Source of the DNA: a bacterium
GTDB lineage: Bacteria; UBP6; UBA1177
Length of the DNA stretch: 64,000 bases
Direction: 5' to 3'
Assembly: GCA_016290135.1 (NCBI GenBank)
Contig: JAEESW010000001.1
Coordinates: 55,565-119,564 of the forward strand
Position 1 is the stretch's first letter; each line of letters starts with the position of its first letter. The notes under the pieces were generated by a model. That model was not told the DNA's origin and did not search any database. It saw only the letters and a program-made list of their open reading frames with translations. Both the position numbers and the translations under genes were made by a program. Of the stretch, positions 12,505-21,588 are shown in pieces.

Positions 12505-14034
12505 ATGAGTAGTTTGCAGAAACTCGCTACTTCAAAAAAACTGGCTGTAATCATCACATATATTTCGCTGATAGTTCATACTTTAAGCAATTTAGTCCTT
12601 ACGCCGCTCTATTTGAATTATCTCGGTCTGGATCAGTATGGTCTTTATCAGATGATTTATACGGTCGCAAGTTATATCCTTATTCTTGATTTCGGCATAA
12701 ACACTGCGATGGTGCGCTATATCTCCAAATATCATGCTACTAACGACTATGAATCTGAGAAGAATTTTTCGGCTCACTGTCTGATCACAGTCGCTACCAT
12801 TATTGTTTTGATGATGGCGGCCGGCCTTATAATGAATGAGTTTTTGTTGGACATATACCCCACAATAACAGCTGAAGAGGCTGGTGTTGCCCATCAGCTG
12901 ATGCTACTGATGCTTGTCGTTGTTTCCGGAACAATATTGGAAAGATTTGTGTCTGGATGTGTATCTGCGTATGAGCATTTTACGGTCAATAATGCGGTAG
13001 GTGTTGTGAAATTAATATTAAAAATCCTTCTGACGATACTATTCCTTTATATCGGTATGGGAGTGATTGCGGTTGTCTTGGTAGATGTGATAGTGATACT
13101 TTTATCAATCATGTTTCGTTCAATATACGCAATCAAACAGTTGCATTTCAAAATTAAGTTGAGCAAGTTCGATTTTACTCTGATCATAGACCTCATTTCC
13201 TTTATGTTTCCCGTTTTTCTTCAGGCCATTATCGGCTATATAAATAATTATGTTGACAAGACAGTGCTTGGTATCATGACATCTAAAGCAGATGTCGCGA
13301 TATATTCGATCGCTACGACTTTCATAGCCTTGTTTAACGCATTGCCTTCCGCTATTTCAGGAGTCTTTTTGCCTAAAGCGACCAAGATGATATTCGGTGG
13401 AAGTTACAACAGTGATGATCTCACGAATTTTGTTATCCGACCAGGCAGATACCAGTTTATGCTTTGCGGAGGATTTGTGTGCGGATTCGCTTTGTTCGGC
13501 AGAGAATTCATCAGTCTGTGGGCCGGACCGAATACTGTTCAGGCATGGACTGTCGCGATGATCATTATTATCCCGAATATGATCCCGTTGATTCAGAATA
13601 CGGCAGTAAGCATTCTGGATGCACTCAAAAAGAGACTTTTCAGATCAGTTGTGCTCTTTGTTGTCTCTGTAATCCATGTCATAATCTCTGTTTTTCTTGT
13701 TGAAAGATACGGGATGATGGGTGCTCCGATTGGCTCGGCGTTTGCATTTATTATCGGATATGGAGTGGTAATGAATATCTATTATCAAAAAGAAATAAAA
13801 ATTCAGGTCGGAAGACTCTTTAAAACCATTTTCTCAAAAACATGGCTGTGTTTGATACCTGCGGTCGCTGTCGGATTTGTCAGCAACAGATTTTTGCCGG
13901 ATTATTCCTGGATCACTTTGGTTGTAAAAGGCGCCGTTTTTAGTGCGGTTTACGGAGTCGCCTTGCTGTTTTACGGATTTAACAATCAAGAAAAAAAGGA
14001 TTTTTCAATCATACTGAAGAAATTCGGAAAGTGA
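12505..14034 (+). CDS. wzx: Oligosaccharide flippase (Wzx, MOP superfamily)
   Basis: 509 aa with about 12-14 TM helices. Typical position as the last gene of the polysaccharide operon. Confidence 0.85.
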   Translation: MSSLQKLATSKKLAVIITYISLIVHTLSNLVLTPLYLNYLGLDQYGLYQMIYTVASYILILDFGINTAMVRYISKYHATNDYESEKNFSAHCLITVATIIVLMMAAGLIMNEFLLDIYPTITAEEAGVAHQLMLLMLVVVSGTILERFVSGCVSAYEHFTVNNAVGVVKLILKILLTILFLYIGMGVIAVVLVDVIVILLSIMFRSIYAIKQLHFKIKLSKFDFTLIIDLISFMFPVFLQAIIGYINNYVDKTVLGIMTSKADVAIYSIATTFIALFNALPSAISGVFLPKATKMIFGGSYNSDDLTNFVIRPGRYQFMLCGGFVCGFALFGREFISLWAGPNTVQAWTVAMIIIIPNMIPLIQNTAVSILDALKKRLFRSVVLFVVSVIHVIISVFLVERYGMMGAPIGSAFAFIIGYGVVMNIYYQKEIKIQVGRLFKTIFSKTWLCLIPAVAVGFVSNRFLPDYSWITLVVKGAVFSAVYGVALLFYGFNNQEKKDFSIILKKFGK

Positions 14035-14066
14035 GTTTGAGGAAGGGAAATAATGTGCCAGATAAT
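14021..14066 (+). repeat. Direct repeat copy C (core CGGAAAGTGAGTTT at 14025-14038, spanning the wzx stop)
   Basis: Hand alignment gives about 30/42 identity to 15825-15866, and the 14-nt core is identical. Confidence 0.6.
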
Positions 14067-14094
14067 TTTGTAGTTAAATAAAAGGAGTATTTCT

Positions 14095-15792
14095 ATGAGT
14101 TATAGTGCAGAACAAAAAACAGTGAGACATTTGTTAACTTCGCAATTATATAGAATCCCGCGTAATCAACGTAAATATGTTTGGGATAAAGATAATTGGG
14201 AAGATTTATTTCTGGATTTAAATTTTGCAACAAAAAATAACTTGAGCCATTTTATTGGAAGTATGGTACTGTTAAAAGATGAAGAAACAGTCGAAGGACT
14301 TCCTCTATTGGTTGTAATAGATGGCCAACAGAGATTATTTACAATCACAATTTTTTTGGCAGCTTTATTGTTCGTCATGAAAAAATATAATTTACAAAAT
14401 GATTATTATGGAACAGAAAAGTATCTTTATGCCACGGATGATAAAAATATTTCACATCATGTTTTTGAATCATCCTATCATCTTGGTCTTGGCAAAATTT
14501 TGACTGCAATACCAAATTTGAAGTTTGGGAGGAATGTTTCCATTGATTCATTCCTTAAAACACATGTTGCGGACAAAATACGTGATAAAAATATAATGGA
14601 TGCCTTCTCTTTTTATGTGGGTAAAATTGAAGAATTTATATTACAACGAAAAGATGATCCCCAGAGTATAACTGTATTAAAGGATGCTATACTTAATACT
14701 GAATATGTTAGAATAGAGGCAACAACTGAAGAGGATTCTTATACTATTTTTGAAATATTGAATGCCCGTGGTCAAACTTTGGCAGATCATGAATTGTTAA
14801 AAAATTATGTTATGAGATATATAGAGCCGAAAGAAAAGGTCGATAATGTAAAAACAGAATGGGAAGATACGGAAAAACTATTGGGACGCGGTATAAATAA
14901 ATATCTTTTACATTACCTGATTCATAGATATAAGGTCGATGAGAATGATAAAAAAGATGCTTATAAAGCAATAAAAAAATATGTGAAAATAACAGATATA
15001 GAATCATTCTATTCTGATTTTATTCAGAAAGCTCAATATTATTCAAAGTTACAGAATCCAAGATTGGTAGACGGTGACGGTAACGAAATTTGTTCAGATT
15101 TGGAGTATTCAATATTTACTTTTTTTAGGAAAAAAAGACAGGAACAATTTCGGCCAGTTATCCTCAGTTTGATGCATCAAAAAGAATTGGGCGAGTTGCC
15201 TATTGAAGAGTATGAGCAAGCATTGGAATTTATTAAAAACTTTTTTGTATGTTATACTATAATCGGAAAAGCAAAATCAAATACGCTTACTTCTATAATA
15301 TCTAGCTATGCGTTTAAATTGGAAAACTCTTTTTCATCAGATTTGTTAAGGGAATTTTTTAAAAGTTTAAAAGATAGGATTCCGAATAAAGATTGGTTTG
15401 AAAAAGCTTTCTCTATGATTGGTTATTCACATCATTTTAAGTTTTATAATGATGATAAGGAAGAAAAAAAGGCAAGATTGGTCTTGGAAATCTATGAAGA
15501 ATCTTTAGGTAATAAAAATATGCCTAAAGAATACACTATTGAGCATATTTTGCTAGATTCTGATGGAGAACAAAATTCCAATATAGGGAATTTGTTACCT
15601 TTAGAGGAAGGTCTAAATAAAAAATGTGCCAATTTGCCTTTGAAAGATAAAATTAAAATTTACAAAAAATCTGATTTTAAAAGCGTAAGAAGATTTGTTG
15701 ATCGATATGAGAATAAAACGGATACCTTTAAAGTAGAAAAGAGAATGTCGCATTTGGCAACAGAATTTTATAAAATTATTAATAAGGCATAA
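14095..15792 (+). CDS. GmrSD-family type IV restriction-like nuclease (DUF262 N-terminal, DUF1524 His-Me finger C-terminal)
   Basis: 'YRIPRNQRKYVW' and 'VIDGQQRLFTITIF' (DGQQR) are DUF262 motifs. The C-terminal 'YTIEHILLDS...NIGNLLPLEEGLNKKCANL' is DUF1524-like. Confidence 0.85.
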   Translation: MSYSAEQKTVRHLLTSQLYRIPRNQRKYVWDKDNWEDLFLDLNFATKNNLSHFIGSMVLLKDEETVEGLPLLVVIDGQQRLFTITIFLAALLFVMKKYNLQNDYYGTEKYLYATDDKNISHHVFESSYHLGLGKILTAIPNLKFGRNVSIDSFLKTHVADKIRDKNIMDAFSFYVGKIEEFILQRKDDPQSITVLKDAILNTEYVRIEATTEEDSYTIFEILNARGQTLADHELLKNYVMRYIEPKEKVDNVKTEWEDTEKLLGRGINKYLLHYLIHRYKVDENDKKDAYKAIKKYVKITDIESFYSDFIQKAQYYSKLQNPRLVDGDGNEICSDLEYSIFTFFRKKRQEQFRPVILSLMHQKELGELPIEEYEQALEFIKNFFVCYTIIGKAKSNTLTSIISSYAFKLENSFSSDLLREFFKSLKDRIPNKDWFEKAFSMIGYSHHFKFYNDDKEEKKARLVLEIYEESLGNKNMPKEYTIEHILLDSDGEQNSNIGNLLPLEEGLNKKCANLPLKDKIKIYKKSDFKSVRRFVDRYENKTDTFKVEKRMSHLATEFYKIINKA

Positions 15793-15797
15793 TGTAG

Positions 15798-15866
15798 TAC
15801 CAAACAAAAACCAGATAGAGTTGGCGGAAAGTGAGTTTATGGTGGCGAAATAAGGCGAAAGCGGAA
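15798..15866 (+). repeat. Direct repeat copy A, starting 6 nt after the GmrSD stop
   Basis: 'TACCAAACAAAAACCAGATAGAGTTGGCGGAAAGTGAGTTT...'. Its 5' part matches copy B (16652-16702) and its 3' part matches copy C (14025-14066). Confidence 0.65.
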
Positions 15867-15915
15867 AAGGAACCAAATGATTGATGTCTGGAAAATGTGA
15901 ATGGAGGGAGATGAA

Positions 15916-16651
15916 ATGGGAAAGAAAAAGTCTTCGAGGGTAATATCAACTGCAGATGTTGAAATGGCGCAAAATTGCAAAATTGTGCTTCCTAGGAAGC
16001 ATAGGGAAGATATTGATCCGTATCAAACATTTTCTGCCAATATTGAAAGAGCAGAATATTTTATTGAATTATACAAACAAAAGATAAAAGTGAGGGCCTG
16101 TAAGGGACGCCCGCCAATATCTGATACTGATATGCTTAGGGCAGGGGTGGTTTTTTTTACACTCCACAGTGGAAGAATATTTGAGAACAATTATTAGACG
16201 GCGCAAAATTTCCTTGTTGAAAAGTAATGAATCTTGGAACGATGTATTGCGGGATGTTTCTCTTCCTGGCAGAAATTACGGAAAATCAACTGCAGCAAAA
16301 ATAGAGCTAAATGAATTGTTTGAATACAAGGATAAGACTGTTTTGGAGTTGGTTCAGGACGCTTTAAATGAAAAGGTGGATTATTTAACATTTAATGACT
16401 ACTCTCAGATTGTTAATTCTTTGAAATCAGTGGGAATAAGGTTGCCTAGCAAAGATAAAGAAATAGATTGCGAAAGTATAAATTCCTATATAAAAAGACG
16501 TCATAAAATTGTCCATGAAGCAGATAAAAACGAGATTGCAGGAAAAGGTAACTATCGCACTCAATCAATTAATTCTAATCAATTAAAAAAATGGGTTGAG
16601 GCGGCAAAAGTTCTTGTCGATAAAATTAATGAAATATATGCGCAATTATAG
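15916..16651 (+). pseudogene. HEPN-superfamily protein (Rx4H 'RHKIVH'), reading frame broken at a T8 run (16151-16158)
   Basis: Track ORFs 15901-16197 (frame 1) and 16169-16651 (frame 2) overlap. Frame 2 is open from 16094. Removing one T from the T8 run joins '...DMLRAGVVF' to 'LHSTVEEYLRTIIRRR...' as one ORF of about 245 aa. The second ORF has no good start (GTG, no RBS). Confidence 0.6.
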
Positions 16652-16702
16652 TGCCAAACAAAAACTGGATAAAGATTCGGCGGAAAAGGGAAAGTGAGTG
16701 TA
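16652..16702 (+). repeat. Direct repeat copy B, starting immediately after the HEPN stop
   Basis: 'TGCCAAACAAAAACTGGATAAAGATTCGGCGGAAAAGGGAAAGTGAGTGTA'. Hand alignment gives about 38/45 identity to copy A, with a 7-nt insertion. Confidence 0.65.
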
Positions 16703-16795
16703 GGTAAACCCCGCTTCTTTTCTCTGGGAACGACCTGATATTTTTCTGACCTTTCTTTGTTTAAAAAAATCTTAATTTTTTTTCAAAAGAGACCC

Positions 16796-16823
16796 TTGAA
16801 ACTGGGGAAAGTGTGTCTATAAG
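16796..16823 (+). promoter_or_regulatory. Putative sigma70-type promoter of the CBASS-like operon
   Basis: TTGAAA (16796-16801), 16-nt spacer, TATAAG (16818-16823). Lies about 50 nt upstream of ATG 16871. Confidence 0.4.
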
Positions 16824-16870
16824 AGACGGCATGATTTTCACAAAAGTGGAGTCAGAGGAGTTTTTGGGGG

Positions 16871-17707
16871 ATGAGGAAGTTGATGAACAAAATTGTAGAC
16901 TGGAAAAGAGAATACGTACAAACAGCATTGTTGACTTTAATTATTGTCGCCAATGTCTGTTTTAATTTACCTGAAATTGCGAAGAACGTATTAGCAGATG
17001 CCTCAGTTCAAATGTCTGAACTAGATCCTAAATGGCGTCTTGCTATTGGTTTTGGTCGATGGGTATTTGCTATAGTTGTTGTTGTAGGATTATGGTTTGT
17101 CATCAAATATTTCAATAAGGATTATGTCTTAAAGCAAAATATTTCCAATGATATAGTCTGGCATACATATTTTGATTACTGGTTTTGTCGGTATTTTTTG
17201 AGCATAAAAAAGTTGTCTTTGACCAGAATGCCGATACCTATGCAGTTTAAGCTCGTGTGGAAGGATCTCTTTTTAGAGTATGATTATATGGACGGCATCA
17301 CAGAAAAGGAAGAGGCTAAGGATAAGGTAAAAGTTGAACGATTTCAGGATAATCCTCTGACATCTACAGTTAACCTTGTTCTTGCAGATACCTACCCGCT
17401 GGATTGGAAAAGCAAGCTCCCTGCATCGGTCCTAAATCTTACGACTATTGTGATAGACCGCACAGGTGAGAAAGGCACTAGATACTATAGTCGGGATTTT
17501 GTAAAAAAGATTTCATCAACAGTACATGATCTTCCAAACAATGTGACGACGATCAACCTGTTTGCAACGATTAATGCTGCTCACTGTTACCATATAACAA
17601 AGGAGGTGTTTATGACGGGAGGCAGAGACTCGCTGAAGCATCTTGTCGTCTATGAACAATCAAAGGGTAGTTGGGTTTTTGAGGGGAAGAATATAAAAGT
17701 GTTTTAA
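16871..17707 (+). CDS. Two-TM membrane protein with an unassigned C-terminal domain of about 190 aa; candidate CBASS effector/sensor (SAVED/CARF-like?)
   Basis: Hydrophobic helices 'TALLTLIIVANVCFNL' and 'WVFAIVVVVGLWFVIKYF'. The C-terminal segments 'VNLVLADTY' and 'TINLFATINAAHCYHITKEVF' look like Rossmann-like beta-strand/loop elements. The gene ends 11 nt before the CD-NTase gene. Confidence 0.45.
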   Translation: MRKLMNKIVDWKREYVQTALLTLIIVANVCFNLPEIAKNVLADASVQMSELDPKWRLAIGFGRWVFAIVVVVGLWFVIKYFNKDYVLKQNISNDIVWHTYFDYWFCRYFLSIKKLSLTRMPIPMQFKLVWKDLFLEYDYMDGITEKEEAKDKVKVERFQDNPLTSTVNLVLADTYPLDWKSKLPASVLNLTTIVIDRTGEKGTRYYSRDFVKKISSTVHDLPNNVTTINLFATINAAHCYHITKEVFMTGGRDSLKHLVVYEQSKGSWVFEGKNIKVF

Positions 17708-17718
17708 GGAGATTAAAA

Positions 17719-18888
17719 ATGGCATACTCGAAAGAACAGTTAGAACGTATTTTTAGTGATTTGGCTGCCAGGATAAATATTAGCGATGCCCTATTCAAAG
17801 TAGCAGATGAAGAGTACACAGCCTTGGGCAAATGGATCAATAATGAAACAGAAAAGAATGGCACGAAGTATAAAGTTCTCATATATCCTCAGGGGTCGTT
17901 TGCTTTAGGAACAGTAATCAAGCCGATATCTGATGAGGATGATTATGATCTGGATCTGGTATGCCTGGTCGAGAACGGTATGAACTTTTCTGCTAAGCAG
18001 TTGAAGTTGGATGTCGTGAAACCTTGGCTTATAGGATATAAGAAAACCAAGAATGACATTGAAGAGAAAAGGCGTTGCTGGCATTTGGAGTATGAGGATG
18101 TTCCACACTTCCACATGGATGTTATTCCTGCAATACCGAGTCCTTTTCCCAACTCTGATAGTACAATTAGCATCACGGATAAAAATGTCGATAGATCTCC
18201 GGTTTATGAATACCAAGAGAGCAATCCCAAAGGGTATGTACAATGGTTTTTTCAACGCTGCCGCCAGAAGAAGATGGGAAGTTCTGGCCTGGAGGTTATG
18301 AGCGAGATGGCTCAACAGGAGGATTTGAAGCGAAATAAGAATAAGACACAACTTCAGAAAGCTGTACAAATTTTGAAGCGTCATAGAGATGTAATGTTTA
18401 AGGACGATCCAGACAACAAGCCTATCTCTATCATTATTACAACTCTCGCTGGTCAGATATATCATGGAGAAACTACTATTCTTGATACGCTTCTTGGATT
18501 TGTTGGAGAAGTAGAGCACTATCTGAAATCTCATTGCAAAGAAGATGGCAGCTATAGTATTCCAAATCCGAGTTATAATGGTGAAGATTTTGCAGACAAA
18601 TGGAAAGATCATCCGGAGAGGCAAACTGCATTTTTCTCTTGGATTAAACAGTTGCAGTCTGATTTCAATCTTGAAAATCTTATGAACCAAGATCGTGTAG
18701 CGATGGGCAATATCGTAAAAGAAGCATTCGGCTCTACCACAGGAAAAGCAATATTCAGCCAAATGGGATATGAAGAAGCTAATGAAGTTAAAGATGGAAT
18801 TCGGAAAGTTGACACAGTAACAGGTAATTTATCAAAAACCGGAATAGTGGCCATTTCTCCAAGTAGGCATTATGGCGAGATTCAATAA
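17719..18888 (+). CDS. cGAS/DncV-like nucleotidyltransferase (CD-NTase, SMODS-type)
   Basis: 'YPQGSFALGTVIKP' (GS motif), 'DDYDLDLVCLV' (DxD) and 'FHMDVIPAIP' (third acidic residue). 389 aa. Sits between a TM protein and an E2-like protein. Confidence 0.8.
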   Translation: MAYSKEQLERIFSDLAARINISDALFKVADEEYTALGKWINNETEKNGTKYKVLIYPQGSFALGTVIKPISDEDDYDLDLVCLVENGMNFSAKQLKLDVVKPWLIGYKKTKNDIEEKRRCWHLEYEDVPHFHMDVIPAIPSPFPNSDSTISITDKNVDRSPVYEYQESNPKGYVQWFFQRCRQKKMGSSGLEVMSEMAQQEDLKRNKNKTQLQKAVQILKRHRDVMFKDDPDNKPISIIITTLAGQIYHGETTILDTLLGFVGEVEHYLKSHCKEDGSYSIPNPSYNGEDFADKWKDHPERQTAFFSWIKQLQSDFNLENLMNQDRVAMGNIVKEAFGSTTGKAIFSQMGYEEANEVKDGIRKVDTVTGNLSKTGIVAISPSRHYGEIQ

Positions 18889-19327
18889 ACCTATTACCTT
18901 GGCACAGCAAGAGATTAAGCTGAGAAAGGTATATCCCAACCTCATTGATAAAATTAGTGTGTCACGCAATGAATTGAGCTGTGTAATGAGGCTTCAGCCG
19001 ACTGCAGAAAGCAGAGAATATAAGGTAAATATTAGGTTCAAAATTGGATCTTGGCCCAAAGTAAAACTGGTGGATCCCAAAGAAATAGTTTTGGTAGACG
19101 GGAAGAAGCCACATCATCTTTACGGCAGAAGTGTTGATGGTGGGGAAAGGCTTTGCGTGTTTTATCCTAAGGACTGTGGGTGGACGGATAACCACTTCTT
19201 GGCAGATACATTTGTTCCATGGGTAATCACTTGGTTGAGTGCTTATGAGATCTGGCAAATTACAGGTGTTTGGGTCTATCCAGAATATGTTGATGGTAAG
19301 CCAAAGCAAGATCAAACTAAGGACTAG
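18872..19327 (+). CDS. Minimal E2 (UBC)-like protein, Cap2-short-like
   Basis: 151 aa. 'KKPHHLYGRSVDGGERLCVFYP' mimics the E2 HPN-x(n)-Cys active-site region (H81/H82, C95). 'FVPWVITWLSAYEIWQITGVW' follows. The start overlaps the CD-NTase 3' end by 17 nt. Confidence 0.5.
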   Translation: MARFNKPITLAQQEIKLRKVYPNLIDKISVSRNELSCVMRLQPTAESREYKVNIRFKIGSWPKVKLVDPKEIVLVDGKKPHHLYGRSVDGGERLCVFYPKDCGWTDNHFLADTFVPWVITWLSAYEIWQITGVWVYPEYVDGKPKQDQTKD

Positions 19328-19396
19328 AGATTTCGTATATTCCGTCCTAATGACAAACAAAATTTTTAACATCCCCATCTTGAAATGAGGTTTGAT

Positions 19397-19419
19397 GCAG
19401 GAATTATTAATTCCCCTGC
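19397..19419. terminator. Possible bidirectional hairpin between the convergent E2-like and HEPN genes
   Basis: GCAGGAATTA-T-TAATTCCCCTGC is an imperfect stem with a 2-nt bulge. It overlaps the last codons of the minus-strand ORF. There is no clean T-run. Confidence 0.3.
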
Positions 19420-20291
19420 TGTTTTAGGAAATACAGCAAAACCGTGTTAAGGACATCCGTAAAAAGCCAAAGCATCCTGGAAACAAAAAGTGGAGTTAGC
19501 ATTTCTTTGTCGATGTTCTTCCAATGTGCTAATGAATTCCGGATGTTAAGCCCTATACCATTAGACTCAGATAAGAGAAATTGAAGACTTTTCAGATGAT
19601 CATAATTAAAAATTTGTTCTATTTTTTTGTCCCAAAGCAATGTCCCGAGAGTTTTTCCGCTTTTGTTTTTATTTTTATTTTTGTCTCCTTTCTTTGTTTT
19701 ATCATCTTTTTCTTCAGGTATATTTTTGCTTTCATTTACATATGCTATTCTCAACAATTTTTCGATTATAGCACATGTCAGGCTTTCTATGGTGTAGCAC
19801 ATGGAATGCAATACTATTTCGGGACACTTATTCTGATTTCTGAGGATATATTCTAAGTTTTCGTGCAAAAAATCGACATCTTTTAATAAATTCTCGTCGT
19901 TGCTGGTTTCTTTATTGATAAGAGAAACGATGTTCTAAATTGATGCTATGTATTTATTCAAAGCATCGGGGCGGCTCATAAATCCCTCTAGTAAACCAGA
20001 ATACATTACAGAATATGCTAACAGCTGTGTTTTGCGCTCAACTGTAAAATACGGGTCTTTGTCTGGTTTGTCATTGTTATATTCTGGTATCGAATTTAAA
20101 ACTGCTATCAATTCTTCATGAACATTATCCGCGAGATAACTGATATATTTAGTATCTCCGTCTTTAATTTCTTTGTGATGAGTGATTTCAAGTAGTTGTT
20201 CTTCGAGTGGTAAGTTTGGATCGAGATTTTCTATCCATCGTTCCAGAAGATAATTCAAATTGCGCTTAGGCTGATTTTCTTGATCTGTCAT
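19407..20291 (-). pseudogene. HEPN-superfamily protein ('NIRNSLAH', DUF4209-like RNxxxH) interrupted by a single in-frame TAG (19935-19937)
   Basis: Track ORFs 19935-20291 and 19407-19868 are in the same frame. The 22 codons between them (NIVSLINKETSNDENLLKDVDF) contain no stop. The downstream ORF begins only at TTG with no RBS. The upstream ORF has AAGGAG 7 nt before ATG 20291. The combined reading frame is 294 codons. Confidence 0.6.
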
Positions 20292-20478
20292 AACAAAACT
20301 CCTTTTTTCAATAACAATAATCTGTTCTCTTTGTTTTCATTCCAAATATACATTGTGTTTGAAAACGCCATTATAAATAAGCACTTTCCCTTGAAGTCAA
20401 GAGGCTGACATGGATTCTTACGTATAAATTTTGGTGAAGTAACAAATTGTGACTTCACCAGATTCGACAACACCTCAT

Positions 20479-20508
20479 GACTGAGAGGACGGAGCTGTCA
20501 CAAATCGA
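20479..20508 (+). repeat. Copy 1 of the short motif pair GACTGAGAGGA / GGAGCTGTCACAAATCGA
   Basis: The same two blocks recur in swapped order at 21560-21588 (GGAGCTGTCGCAAAGCGA/CTGAGAGGGA). Confidence 0.5.
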
Positions 20509-20555
20509 TAAATGAAAAATTTAAAATTCGGTTAAAATAAAAATCTAAAAATAAT

Positions 20556-20583
20556 TTGACTTTTAAAAATAAGTGACTATATT
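20556..20583 (+). promoter_or_regulatory. Putative sigma70-type promoter of the MNT/HEPN operon
   Basis: TTGACT (20556-20561), 16-nt spacer, TATATT (20578-20583). Confidence 0.55.
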
Positions 20584-20591
20584 ACTTCCAT

Positions 20592-20669
20592 CGGTGAGTC
20601 CTACCGTTAAGTGGAATCTTTAAAAGCAGTGAACCCTACTGTGAGTGGGAACTTTAAAAGCGGTGAGAA
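20592..20669 (+). repeat. Tandem direct repeats (35 nt, 34 nt and a 9-nt partial) in the 5' leader of the MNT/HEPN operon
   Basis: R1 is CGGTGAGTCCTACCGTTAAGTGGAATCTTTAAAAG (20592-20626). R2 is CAGTGAACCCTACTGTGAGTGGGAACTTTAAAAG (20627-20660). The partial CGGTGAGAA runs into ATG 20670. Hand alignment gives about 26/35 identity. Confidence 0.7.
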
Positions 20670-21011
20670 ATGAACAAGAAGATGATTGACAGCGCGATGA
20701 AGGACCTCGCGGCTGAAGCAAAAAACATATACGGTGAAAAACTGAAAGAAGTGATTCTTTTCGGTTCTTGCGCAAGAGGCGATTTCGAGGATGACAGTGA
20801 TGTTGATATAATGATCCTTCTCGATGTGCCGAGAAGCGAAGTCGAAGAAGCCAATCACAAAATGGGTTCCGTGATAAGCAGACTTGATAAAAAATATGAA
20901 TACGAACTTCTGTTTTCCCCCATTGTGCAGAGCTACAGCGAGTTCAATTACTGGATCGAAGCCCTTCCTTTTTATCAAAATGTCCGTAAAGAAGGCATAA
21001 GGTATGCGTGA
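20670..21011 (+). CDS. Minimal nucleotidyltransferase (MNT) antitoxin of an MNT/HEPN pair
   Basis: 'ILFGSCARGDFEDDSDVDIMILLD' (GSxxRG...DxD). 113 aa. Overlaps the HEPN gene by 8 nt. Confidence 0.85.
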   Translation: MNKKMIDSAMKDLAAEAKNIYGEKLKEVILFGSCARGDFEDDSDVDIMILLDVPRSEVEEANHKMGSVISRLDKKYEYELLFSPIVQSYSEFNYWIEALPFYQNVRKEGIRYA

Positions 21012-21417
21012 AATCAGCCAGCAGGCAAAAGATTTGTCGATATATCGACTGGAAAGAGCGAAAGAAGACTGTACCGCTGCCGAAAACAATTTAGGGCTTA
21101 AAGATCTCAGAACTGCAGTAAACCGCGCATATTATGCTATATTTCATGCTTTGAGAGCGGTTCTGGCACTTGACGAATACGACTCTAAGAAACACAGCGG
21201 AATCATAAGCGAATTTCGTCTGCGCTATGTCAAAACCGGCATTTTCGACGAAGAAATATCCGATATGATCGGCAAAGCATTCCAGGTAAGGAACAAGTCT
21301 GATTATGAAGATATGTACATCGTTAGCAGAAACGATACCGAAATTCAGATACGAAACGCAAAAACTATTATTGACGCGGTCGAAAAATATCTGAAAGACG
21401 AAAAAATAATCGGCTGA
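21004..21417 (+). CDS. HEPN-domain toxin of an MNT/HEPN pair
   Basis: 137 aa and all-helical. 'AYYAIFHALRAVL' and 'FQVRNKSDYED' are classical HEPN (PF05168-type) motifs. Confidence 0.85.
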   Translation: MREISQQAKDLSIYRLERAKEDCTAAENNLGLKDLRTAVNRAYYAIFHALRAVLALDEYDSKKHSGIISEFRLRYVKTGIFDEEISDMIGKAFQVRNKSDYEDMYIVSRNDTEIQIRNAKTIIDAVEKYLKDEKIIG

Positions 21418-21492
21418 ATCAGTGATTCTGATATCGAAATCCTCTCGCTTTTCCTAAAAAAATCAGTATAATGCAGCGGTTTGACCTCTTTG

Positions 21493-21588
21493 CCCTCTCC
21501 GTCAGCCTTTGGCTGCCACCTCTCCCTGAGTGAGAGGCAAGCTTGGCTCCCACTTTGGGGGAGCTGTCGCAAAGCGACTGAGAGGGAG
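21493..21588. repeat. Imperfect palindromic intergenic element of about 95 nt (copy 2 of the GGAGCTGTC.CAAA.CGA / CTGAGAGGGA motif)
   Basis: Outer arms CCCTCTCCGTC (21493-21503) and GACTGAGAGGG (21576-21586) match 10/11 as reverse complements. Inner hairpins are CCTCTC-N7-GAGAGG (21519-21537) and GTCGC-AAA-GCGAC (21566-21578). Confidence 0.55.

What the first reader, a model, noticed from the sequence alone, without database searches (positions are those of the whole stretch)
18800..19327. E2-only partner with a candidate catalytic Cys95, and a cyclase C-terminus ending ...RHYGEIQ
The 151-aa protein has 'PHHLY-x10-LCVFYP', which mirrors the E2 'HPN...C' active-site spacing.

The cyclase ends '...SPSRHYGEIQ', with a Gly four residues from the end.

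In type II CBASS the cyclase C-terminus is the conjugated moiety. Published work on E2-only systems describes covalent linkage of the cyclase C-terminal region to the E2 Cys. I cannot verify the residue-level rule from here.

The 17-nt overlap suggests translational coupling and roughly 1:1 stoichiometry.
Basis: partly seen in the sequence, partly recalled or inferred. Interest (0 to 1): 0.55.

Follow-up and report, generated by a model that had tools for sequence, protein, structure and literature searches.

The report
E2-only CBASS anti-phage operon

Summary
The window carries three genes: a SUa-2TM membrane effector (16871-17707), a clade-G-like CD-NTase cyclase (17719-18888) and a 151-aa E2 (18872-19327). 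Together they form an E2-only (type II short) CBASS operon. No E1 or JAB partner is present.

The E2 matches PADLOC CBASS E2 models (1e-33). It also matches the solved Serratia marcescens SmE2 by sequence (1e-13) and by fold (Z 16.5).
- Cys95 aligns with SmE2 C101 and is present in 147/147 family representatives.
- His82 aligns with the catalytic H87 and is present in 146/147.
- His81 is specific to this clade.

The cyclase tail ...RHYG|EIQ fits the family motif [RKH]-H-[YHF]-G followed by 0-9 disposable residues. Published work shows that SmE2 is a Cys/His peptidase. It cuts after this Gly, forms a thioester, and then forms an isopeptide bond to a lysine.

Two additions come from this analysis.
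- In 15/15 loci, the E2 start codon is built from the codons of the residue before the Gly and the Gly itself. The overlap (11-41 nt) is therefore a conserved feature.
- This clade lacks the lid motif GGGxH (SmE2 H152, needed for immunity there) and carries His81 instead.

Verdict: a new member of a known kind, of modest interest. The scan had already noted this operon on the same DNA.

The parts
16871..17707 (+). SUa-2TM membrane effector (278 aa): two TM helices plus a compact nucleotide-sensing domain
   Evidence: Pfam PF18179 SUa-2TM 2.9e-35, covering 4-268 of 279 profile positions. PADLOC 2TM effector 7.8e-55 and SAVED7--SAVED_TM 4e-50.
17719..18888 (+). CD-NTase cyclase (389 aa), clade-G-like, with intact G59-S60 / D77 / D79 / D134 active site
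   Evidence: Pfam SMODS 3e-13 and DncV-like NTase 1.3e-10. PADLOC cyclase 3.5e-110. PDB VcCdnG 9woo 1.4e-51, SmCdnG 6.3e-26, BdCdnG 6.4e-16. AF2 model pLDDT 88, with SmCdnG and BdCdnG as top Foldseek hits. Active-site residues are invariant in 65 homologues.
18262..18348 (+). Predicted disordered surface loop of the cyclase (about residues 182-210; pLDDT<50 at 186-200), at the position of the clade-G 'activation loop'
   Evidence: AF2 model. The segment is sequence-variable in 65 homologues. SmCdnG residues 191-210 had no density. The protease-tripwire loop of clade G is described in PMC12991175. A tripwire role here is inference only.
18733..18885 (+). Cyclase C-terminal E2-binding region (helix 339-358, short strands, flexible tail) ending in the R383-H384-Y385-G386 motif plus disposable E-I-Q
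   Evidence: AF2 secondary structure. Published SmCdnG C-terminal helix plus three-stranded sheet that recruits E2. H384 is invariant and G386 is conserved at 90% or more in 65 homologues. Tail survey.
18874..18876 (+). Codon of Gly386, the predicted scissile and conjugated residue (= Sm G406)
   Evidence: Motif [RKH]-H-[YHF]-G followed by 0-9 residues in 113 of 115 full-length homologues. Sm G406 genetics.
18872..18888 (+). 17-nt cyclase/E2 overlap. The E2 ATG is made of tAT (Tyr385) plus Ggc (Gly386)
   Evidence: Sequence. The same register is found in 15/15 loci, with overlaps of 11, 14, 17, 20 or 41 nt.
18872..19327 (+). E2-CBASS E2 (151 aa), UBC fold, predicted Cys/His peptidase-transferase
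   Evidence: PADLOC E2 1.3e-33. SmE2 8hsb_B 1.1e-13. AF2 pLDDT 89. Foldseek 8yjy_B TM 0.82. VIA-align Z 16.5, rmsd 2.2, 141 aligned residues; UBC/UEV folds Z 7.3-8.4.
19115..19117 (+). His82 codon, predicted general base of the dyad (= Sm H87). The neighbouring His81 (19112-19114) is clade-specific
   Evidence: H82 is present in 146/147 representatives. Position 81 is Pro in 115/147 and His in 11/147. Residue mapping to Sm H87 was counted and checked against P48, S49, C69 and C101 named in the papers.
19154..19156 (+). Cys95 codon, catalytic cysteine (= Sm C101)
   Evidence: Present in 147/147 representatives. Aligned to C101.
19274..19324 (+). E2 C-terminal lid (residues 135-151: VYPEYVDGKPKQDQTKD) with candidate acceptor lysines K143, K145 and K150. 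It lacks the family's GGGxH motif
   Evidence: Column statistics. Clade analysis. The KPK motif is conserved in close homologues. Roles of Sm K159 and H152.

Best explanation
This is a self-contained E2-only (type II short) CBASS abortive-infection operon. The clade-G-like cyclase and the E2 are made together from overlapping genes and form a 1:1 complex through the cyclase's C-terminal helix/sheet region.

Proposed chemistry: the flexible tail threads into the E2 active site. The Cys95/His82 dyad attacks the Gly386-Glu387 peptide bond and releases the tripeptide E-I-Q. This leaves the cyclase as a Gly386~Cys95 thioester, which is then passed to a lysine. The acceptor is probably K143, K145 or K150 in the E2's own lid (a parked, inhibited state), or a lysine of another cyclase molecule (an activated, chain-forming state).

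On infection the cyclase makes a cyclic nucleotide that opens the SUa-2TM membrane effector and kills the cell.

Shown here: homology, fold, conserved catalytic residues, the conserved tail motif and the conserved overlap. Inferred from the Serratia system: the chemistry, the acceptor lysines and the direction of regulation.
For: Family and fold assignment.

Residue conservation: Cys95 147/147 and His82 146/147 among diverse representatives. Both are invariant in 22 close homologues.

Cyclase tail: [RKH]-H-[YHF]-G plus 0-9 trailing residues in 113/115 homologues. The window has 3 trailing residues.

Natural cyclase-E2 fusions keep an aromatic-Gly-Gly or aromatic-Ala-Gly site just before the linker to the E2 domain.

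Published Serratia results: C101 and H87 are required for cleavage and linkage; residues after G406, even an MBP or GFP fusion, are removed; a thioester interconverts with the K159 isopeptide; the complex is 1:1.

No partner enzymes: no Prok-JAB in the 98%-complete genome, only two small ThiF-type genes on other contigs, and only one SMODS cyclase.

Overlap register is conserved in 15/15 loci.
Against: No biochemistry exists for this protein or its clade. The window's E2 is only about 28% identical to SmE2.

The lid differs. The GGGxH motif, whose His (Sm H152) was required for immunity in Serratia, is absent. The thioester/isopeptide switch may therefore work differently or not at all.

The lid region of the model has low confidence (pLDDT about 60). 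No complex model could be made.

The three-stranded sheet of the cyclase C-terminus is only weakly formed in the monomer model.
Confidence: 0.85

Rival explanations
1. The E2 of this clade is a non-covalent regulatory subunit or chaperone of the cyclase. It has lost the cleave-and-ligate cycle because its lid lacks the GGGxH element.
For: The lid motif present in 121/147 family members is missing here. Sm H152A and lid deletion abolished immunity in Serratia.
Against: Cys95, His82 and the tail Gly are strictly conserved within the clade, which would not be expected if the chemistry were lost. Sm H152A still formed the covalent complex.
Confidence: 0.07
2. This is canonical E1-dependent conjugation. 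The E2 receives the cyclase from an E1 (Cap2-like or ThiF-like) encoded elsewhere, and a separate peptidase trims the tail.
For: Two ThiF-family genes exist in the genome. Full type II CBASS works this way.
Against: The ThiF hits are small (open frames of 260 and 211 aa), lie on other contigs, and one carries a stop. No Prok-JAB was found in the 98%-complete genome. SmE2 linked to its cyclase in plain buffer without cofactors or an E1. The flanking genes are unrelated defence genes.
Confidence: 0.04
3. The conserved tail motif reflects only nucleotide-level constraints (the E2 start codon and ribosome-binding context lie within it), not recognition by the E2.
For: The E2 ATG or TTG is built from the [Y/H/F]-Gly codons in 15/15 loci. 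Sm Y405A had no effect on linkage. Two homologues with Gly replaced by Glu still keep the ATG.
Against: Asn and Asp codons (AAT, GAT) would also give ATG but are never seen at that position in about 115 tails. His384 and the Gly are conserved beyond what a start codon requires. Sm G406V, G406L and G406R abolish linkage. Fusion proteins, which need no internal start, keep the aromatic-Gly site.
Confidence: 0.04

Closest known systems
Serratia marcescens E2-CBASS: SmCdnG (cGAS) with SmE2, PDB 8HSB/8YJY/9KKB (Yan et al. 2024 Nat Microbiol, preprint 10.1101/2022.05.25.493364; Xiao et al. 2026, PMC12948482)
   Same: Clade-G cyclase plus a stand-alone E2 of about 150 aa, without E1 or JAB. Catalytic Cys (C101 = C95) and His (H87 = H82). 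Tail ...Y-G-E with a conserved Gly. A C-terminal helix/sheet region on the cyclase. A lysine-bearing C-terminal lid on the E2. A 2TM/SAVED-type membrane effector. The E2 models superpose at Z 16.5 and TM 0.82.
   Different: About 28% E2 identity. Three trailing residues instead of one. The lid lacks GGGxH (no H152 equivalent) and an extra His81 is present. The loop between His and Cys is 3-5 residues longer than in most of the family. Gene order is effector first. No exonuclease gene is present.
Full type II CBASS (Cap2 E1-E2 fusion plus Cap3 JAB; e.g. Enterobacter cloacae CdnD-Cap2, PDB 7TO3; Vibrio cholerae DncV)
   Same: The cyclase C-terminus is the conjugated moiety, attached through a UBC-fold cysteine.
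   Different: No E1 adenylation domain and no JAB peptidase here. The published E2-only mechanism is ATP-independent peptide-bond attack rather than adenylation.
Eukaryotic UBC/UEV-fold E2 enzymes (e.g. UbcH5B, UFC1, TSG101 UEV)
   Same: The same core fold (Z 7.3-8.4). The catalytic Cys sits on the loop after the last beta strand, with an upstream His in an HPN-like position.
   Different: No HPN Asn. No C-terminal helices; a lid loop takes their place. In the bacterial enzyme the His acts as a protease-type general base. The HPN spacing quoted for UbcH5B is from my own knowledge and was not tested.
Sister operons in gut and rumen bacteria (L010-L019: Allofournierella, Faecalibacterium, Ruminococcus, Christensenella, Lachnospiraceae NK3A20, Bacteroidaceae MAG)
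   Same: The same PHH / W-x-Y-x-E subfamily of E2 (37-48% identity). The same overlap register and the same effector-cyclase-E2 order.
   Different: Most carry a Cap5 (HNH-SAVED) nuclease effector instead of SUa-2TM. Only Lachnospiraceae NK3A20 (L013) shares the 2TM effector.

Membership tests
E2-only (type II short) CBASS | CD-NTase cyclase with an intact GS...DxD...D active site | tested here: met
   SMODS and DncV-like NTase domains. PADLOC cyclase 3.5e-110. G59, S60, D77, D79 and D134 are invariant in 65 homologues and align with Sm D84/D86.
E2-only (type II short) CBASS | Adjacent stand-alone UBC-fold E2 of the CBASS E2 family | tested here: met
   PADLOC E2 models 1.3e-33 to 6.6e-17. SmE2 1.1e-13. 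Fold Z 16.5.
E2-only (type II short) CBASS | No E1 domain and no JAB peptidase in the operon | tested here: met
   Flanking ORFs are GmrSD-like, HEPN and DUF4209 proteins. No Prok-JAB in the genome. The only ThiF hits are small and lie on other contigs.
E2-only (type II short) CBASS | Catalytic Cys and upstream catalytic His of the E2 (Sm C101 / H87) | tested here: met
   C95 in 147/147 and H82 in 146/147 representatives. Residue-by-residue match.
E2-only (type II short) CBASS | Conserved Gly at or near the cyclase C-terminus (Sm G406) | tested here: met
   G386 in the motif R-H-Y-G. 113/115 homologues have this Gly followed by 0-9 residues.
E2-only (type II short) CBASS | Cyclase C-terminal helix plus three-stranded sheet that recruits the E2 | tested here: inconclusive
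   The monomer model gives helix 339-358 and three very short strands, followed by a floppy tail. The Foldseek alignment to SmCdnG spans about 400 columns. No complex model could be made.
E2-only (type II short) CBASS | Covalent cyclase-E2 adduct with removal of residues after the Gly | not testable with these tools
   Needs protein chemistry. Shown only for the Serratia pair.
E2-only (type II short) CBASS | Cyclic-nucleotide-responsive effector gene in the operon | tested here: met
   SUa-2TM 2.9e-35. PADLOC 2TM / SAVED_TM.
SmE2-type pH-switched lid (GGGxH, Sm H152) | His in the C-terminal lid, about 6 residues after the conserved Trp | tested here: not met
   The window reads W134-V-Y-P-E-Y-V-D-G-K-P-K, and the aligned column holds Asp141. 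121/147 representatives have His there. All 11 PHH-type members lack it.
Clade G CD-NTase (CdnG) | Closest similarity to characterised CdnG enzymes | tested here: met
   Best PDB sequence hits are VcCdnG 1.4e-51, SmCdnG 6.3e-26 and BdCdnG 6.4e-16. Best fold hits are SmCdnG and BdCdnG. No formal clade phylogeny was run, and the nucleotide product is unknown.
Full type II CBASS (Cap2/Cap3) | E1 adenylation domain fused to the E2, plus a JAB peptidase | tested here: not met
   The E2 is 151 aa with a UBC fold only. No JAB was found.

The most novel reading that the evidence does not exclude
The window's E2 belongs to a distinct subfamily, about 8% of family representatives and found mostly in gut and rumen anaerobes. 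In this subfamily the immunity-critical lid histidine and GGG hinge of SmE2 have been lost, and a second histidine (His81) sits next to the catalytic His82. The switch between the parked isopeptide state and the reactive thioester state would then be triggered differently from the published pH-sensor model. Within the clade, the two full-length members without His81 still keep a lid His.

In addition, the scissile Tyr-Gly codons double as the E2 start codon across the family. Tail sequence, tail length and E2 translation are therefore locked together.
Probability: 0.3. Interest if true: 0.45.

Novelty: new member of a known kind. Interest (0 to 1): 0.3.

Why it matters
The result mainly gives a secure annotation: a complete, apparently functional E2-only CBASS in a low-GC defence island inside a polysaccharide locus. 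It provides residue-level predictions that match the one characterised system.

Two points go modestly beyond the literature I could read.
- The overlap rule (start codon inside the cleavage-site codons) offers an explanation for the aromatic or His residue before the Gly being conserved although it was dispensable for linkage in Serratia. It also offers an explanation for the variable tail length.
- The PHH / no-GGGxH subfamily is a natural test of the proposed pH-sensor mechanism.

Tried and rejected
- The first genome-contig scan with the close alignment found nothing. The subfamily alignment A4 then gave 10 loci.
- The local Pfam and NCBIfam libraries have no hit for the E2, although homologues carry a precomputed PF26395 tag. 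PADLOC and PDB gave the assignment instead.
- The E2 was not found in 60 related genomes, nor in 38 genomes searched with a profile. This is uninformative beyond showing patchy, island-type distribution.
- The promoter/terminator scan of 16500-19600 gave fewer promoter-like sites than shuffles and no terminator. Nothing was concluded from it.
- The Shine-Dalgarno-like AGTAGG before the E2 start is not conserved across loci, so I do not claim an independent ribosome-binding site.
- No cyclase-E2 complex could be folded.
- The final Nature Microbiology paper is not held; the preprint was used.

Full report
**What is there**

ORF listing and sequence confirm three co-directional genes:
- a 278-aa protein at 16871-17707;
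- a 389-aa protein at 17719-18888, ending ...SPSRHYGEIQ;
- a 151-aa protein at 18872-19327, overlapping the previous gene by 17 nt in the +1 frame.

The spacer between PHHLY and LCVFYP is 9 residues, not 10.

**Identity of the three genes**

- The 278-aa protein is a full-length SUa-2TM effector (Pfam 2.9e-35; PADLOC 2TM 7.8e-55).
- The 389-aa protein is a SMODS/DncV-like cyclase (PADLOC 3.5e-110). Its best solved relatives are all clade G: VcCdnG (9WOO, 1.4e-51), SmCdnG (6.3e-26) and BdCdnG (6.4e-16).
- The cyclase AlphaFold model (pLDDT 88) superposes best on SmCdnG and BdCdnG. The GS / DxD / D catalytic residues are invariant in 65 homologues.
- The 151-aa protein matches eight PADLOC CBASS E2 models (best 1.3e-33). 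It also matches the E2 chain of the Serratia marcescens CdnG-E2 cryo-EM structure (1.1e-13).
- The E2 model (pLDDT 89) superposes on that chain with TM 0.82 and Z 16.5 (rmsd 2.2 over 141 residues). Eukaryotic UBC/UEV folds follow at Z 7.3-8.4.
- No E1 or JAB gene is in the operon. The 98%-complete genome has no Prok-JAB match, only two small ThiF-type genes on other contigs, and a single SMODS cyclase.

This is therefore an E2-only (type II short) CBASS.

**Residue-level check against the characterised system**

Counting the HMMER alignment, and checking it against residues named in the papers (P48, S49, C69), gives these equivalences:
- window Cys95 = Sm C101;
- window His82 = Sm H87;
- window His81 = Sm P86.

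Among 147 diverse representatives of the family (clustered at 50% identity; 967 hits at E<=0.001):
- Cys95 is present in 147/147;
- His82 is present in 146/147;
- position 81 is Pro in 115 and His in only 11.

The Serratia work shows the following (preprint 10.1101/2022.05.25.493364; PMC12948482):
- C101 and H87 form a protease-type dyad.
- The E2 alone, in plain buffer, removes whatever follows G406 of the cyclase (one Glu, or a fused MBP or GFP).
- It forms a G406~C101 thioester and converts it to an isopeptide with K159 in the E2's C-terminal lid.
- The complex is 1:1.
- Cyclase-cyclase chains are the active form.

The Gly does not need to be terminal, because the E2 trims the tail.

**The cyclase tail**

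In 115 full-length homologues (45-86% identical), 113 end in [RKH]-H-[YHF]-G. The number of residues after the Gly is:
- 0 in 3 sequences;
- 1 in 49;
- 2 in 44;
- 3 in 10;
- 4 in 2;
- 5 in 4;
- 9 in 1.

The window, with three trailing residues (E-I-Q), is on the long side but ordinary. His384 is invariant and Gly386 nearly so. Four natural cyclase-E2 fusion proteins keep an aromatic-Gly-Gly or aromatic-Ala-Gly site just upstream of the linker to the E2 domain. This fits processing at that site.

**The overlap**

I compared the junction in 15 loci:
- the window;
- four metagenomic loci (L002, L003, L005, L006);
- ten loci from named genomes with E2s 37-48% identical: Allofournierella, Faecalibacterium, Ruminococcus, Christensenella, Lachnospiraceae, a Bacteroidaceae MAG, a gammaproteobacterial MAG and others.

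In all 15, the E2 start codon is made of the last two bases of the codon before the Gly plus the first G of the Gly codon. That is xAT-Ggn, giving ATG. In L018, where the residue is Phe, ttT-Ggn gives TTG.

The overlap length (11, 14, 17, 20 or 41 nt) depends only on where the cyclase frame meets a stop inside the E2's first codons.

It also suggests that the Tyr/His/Phe before the Gly is partly held by dual coding. Y405A had no effect on linkage in Serratia. A protein-level constraint remains, however, because Asn and Asp codons would also give ATG and are never seen. A Shine-Dalgarno-like AGTAGG upstream is not conserved. Re-initiation by ribosomes finishing the cyclase is plausible but not shown.

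**What differs from the Serratia model**

After the conserved Trp134, most of the family reads x-G-G-G-x-H. The His is present in 121/147 representatives. It corresponds to Sm H152, the proposed pH sensor, whose mutation abolished immunity.

The window reads V-Y-P-E-Y-V-D-G-K-P-K, with no lid His. The 11 representatives with His81 all share a W-x-Y-x-E lid and lack GGGxH. In a FastTree phylogeny they fall in one clade of 14 tips (support 0.88).

The two full-length members of that clade without His81 (P0160, P0163) do carry a His 6-7 residues after the Trp. This fits His81 having taken over the role of the lid His. It is essentially one evolutionary event on a very small sample, so it remains a hypothesis.

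Candidate acceptor lysines K143, K145 and K150 are present. K-P-K is conserved in close homologues.

**Other features of the cyclase**

The model has one disordered segment (pLDDT<50 at 186-200, within a loop of about 182-210) between conserved helices. The segment is variable in homologues. It corresponds to the part of SmCdnG that lacked density (191-210).

A 2026 preprint reports that such loops in nearly all clade-G enzymes are activation loops cut by phage prohead proteases (PMC12991175). Whether that applies here is inference.

**Context**

The operon lies in a 30-40% GC stretch, between flanking DNA of about 40% GC upstream and 45-54% GC downstream. Neighbouring genes are:
- a GmrSD/HEC-06-like gene;
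- a split RiboL-PSP HEPN gene;
- a DUF4209 gene;
- a candidate nucleotidyltransferase/HEPN pair at 20670-21417, which I did not scan against any library.

The E2 was found in none of 60 other genomes sampled around this one. Relatives keep the cyclase-E2 module but swap the effector. Most have Cap5 HNH-SAVED, while Lachnospiraceae NK3A20 has SUa-2TM, like the window. All of this is typical of mobile defence islands. Earlier notes of this scan on the same DNA reached the same general reading of the operon, effector and island.

**Verdict**

The system is a new member of a published kind. The mechanism is assigned by homology with high confidence (about 0.85), but the chemistry is untested in this clade. 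The conserved start-codon-in-cleavage-site arrangement and the His81 / no-GGGxH lid subfamily are the only points that go beyond the literature I could read. They justify a modest interest score.

Noticed in passing
window 15901-16651 (+): The RiboL-PSP HEPN gene appears split into two overlapping ORFs (98 aa and 160 aa). The Pfam match in the second ORF starts only at profile position 43, so the N-terminal part probably lies in the upstream frame. This could be a frameshift or a sequencing error.
   Followed up: no
window 14095-15792 (+): A 565-aa GmrSD-type (DUF262/DUF1524) protein. It matches PADLOC HEC-06 (6.7e-60) and type IV restriction models, and lies directly after the wzx flippase gene.
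   Followed up: partly
window 14000-21500: Low-GC stretch (0.30-0.40), with flanking DNA at about 0.40 upstream and 0.45-0.54 downstream. It holds several defence-type genes between polysaccharide-synthesis genes, which is consistent with an acquired defence island.
   Followed up: partly
window 19407-20291 (-): Two minus-strand ORFs (152 and 117 aa). The 152-aa ORF has a DUF4209 match (2.3e-7) and weak Csm6 / PDC-S39 matches. They may be one interrupted HEPN-like gene.
   Followed up: no
L003:1998-2842 and L005:529-2494: In two metagenomic sister loci the SUa-2TM effector is split into two ORFs. In L005 the cyclase also changes frame before its tail. These are either decaying copies or assembly errors.
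   Followed up: partly
proteins P0102 and P0115 (cyclase homologues): Their tails end ...HHYEE: the conserved Gly is replaced by Glu, while Tyr-Glu codons (TAT GAx) would still provide the overlapping ATG. They may be uncleavable natural variants.
   Followed up: no
proteins P0222, P0276, P0285, P0291: Natural single-chain cyclase-E2 fusions (489-564 aa). They retain an aromatic-Gly-Gly or aromatic-Ala-Gly site before a linker of about 15-30 residues to the E2 domain, which suggests self-processing in cis.
   Followed up: partly
E2 homologues P0001-P0035: They carry a precomputed Pfam tag PF26395, which the local Pfam-A copy did not report for the window's E2. The family seems to have been added to Pfam recently.
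   Followed up: no
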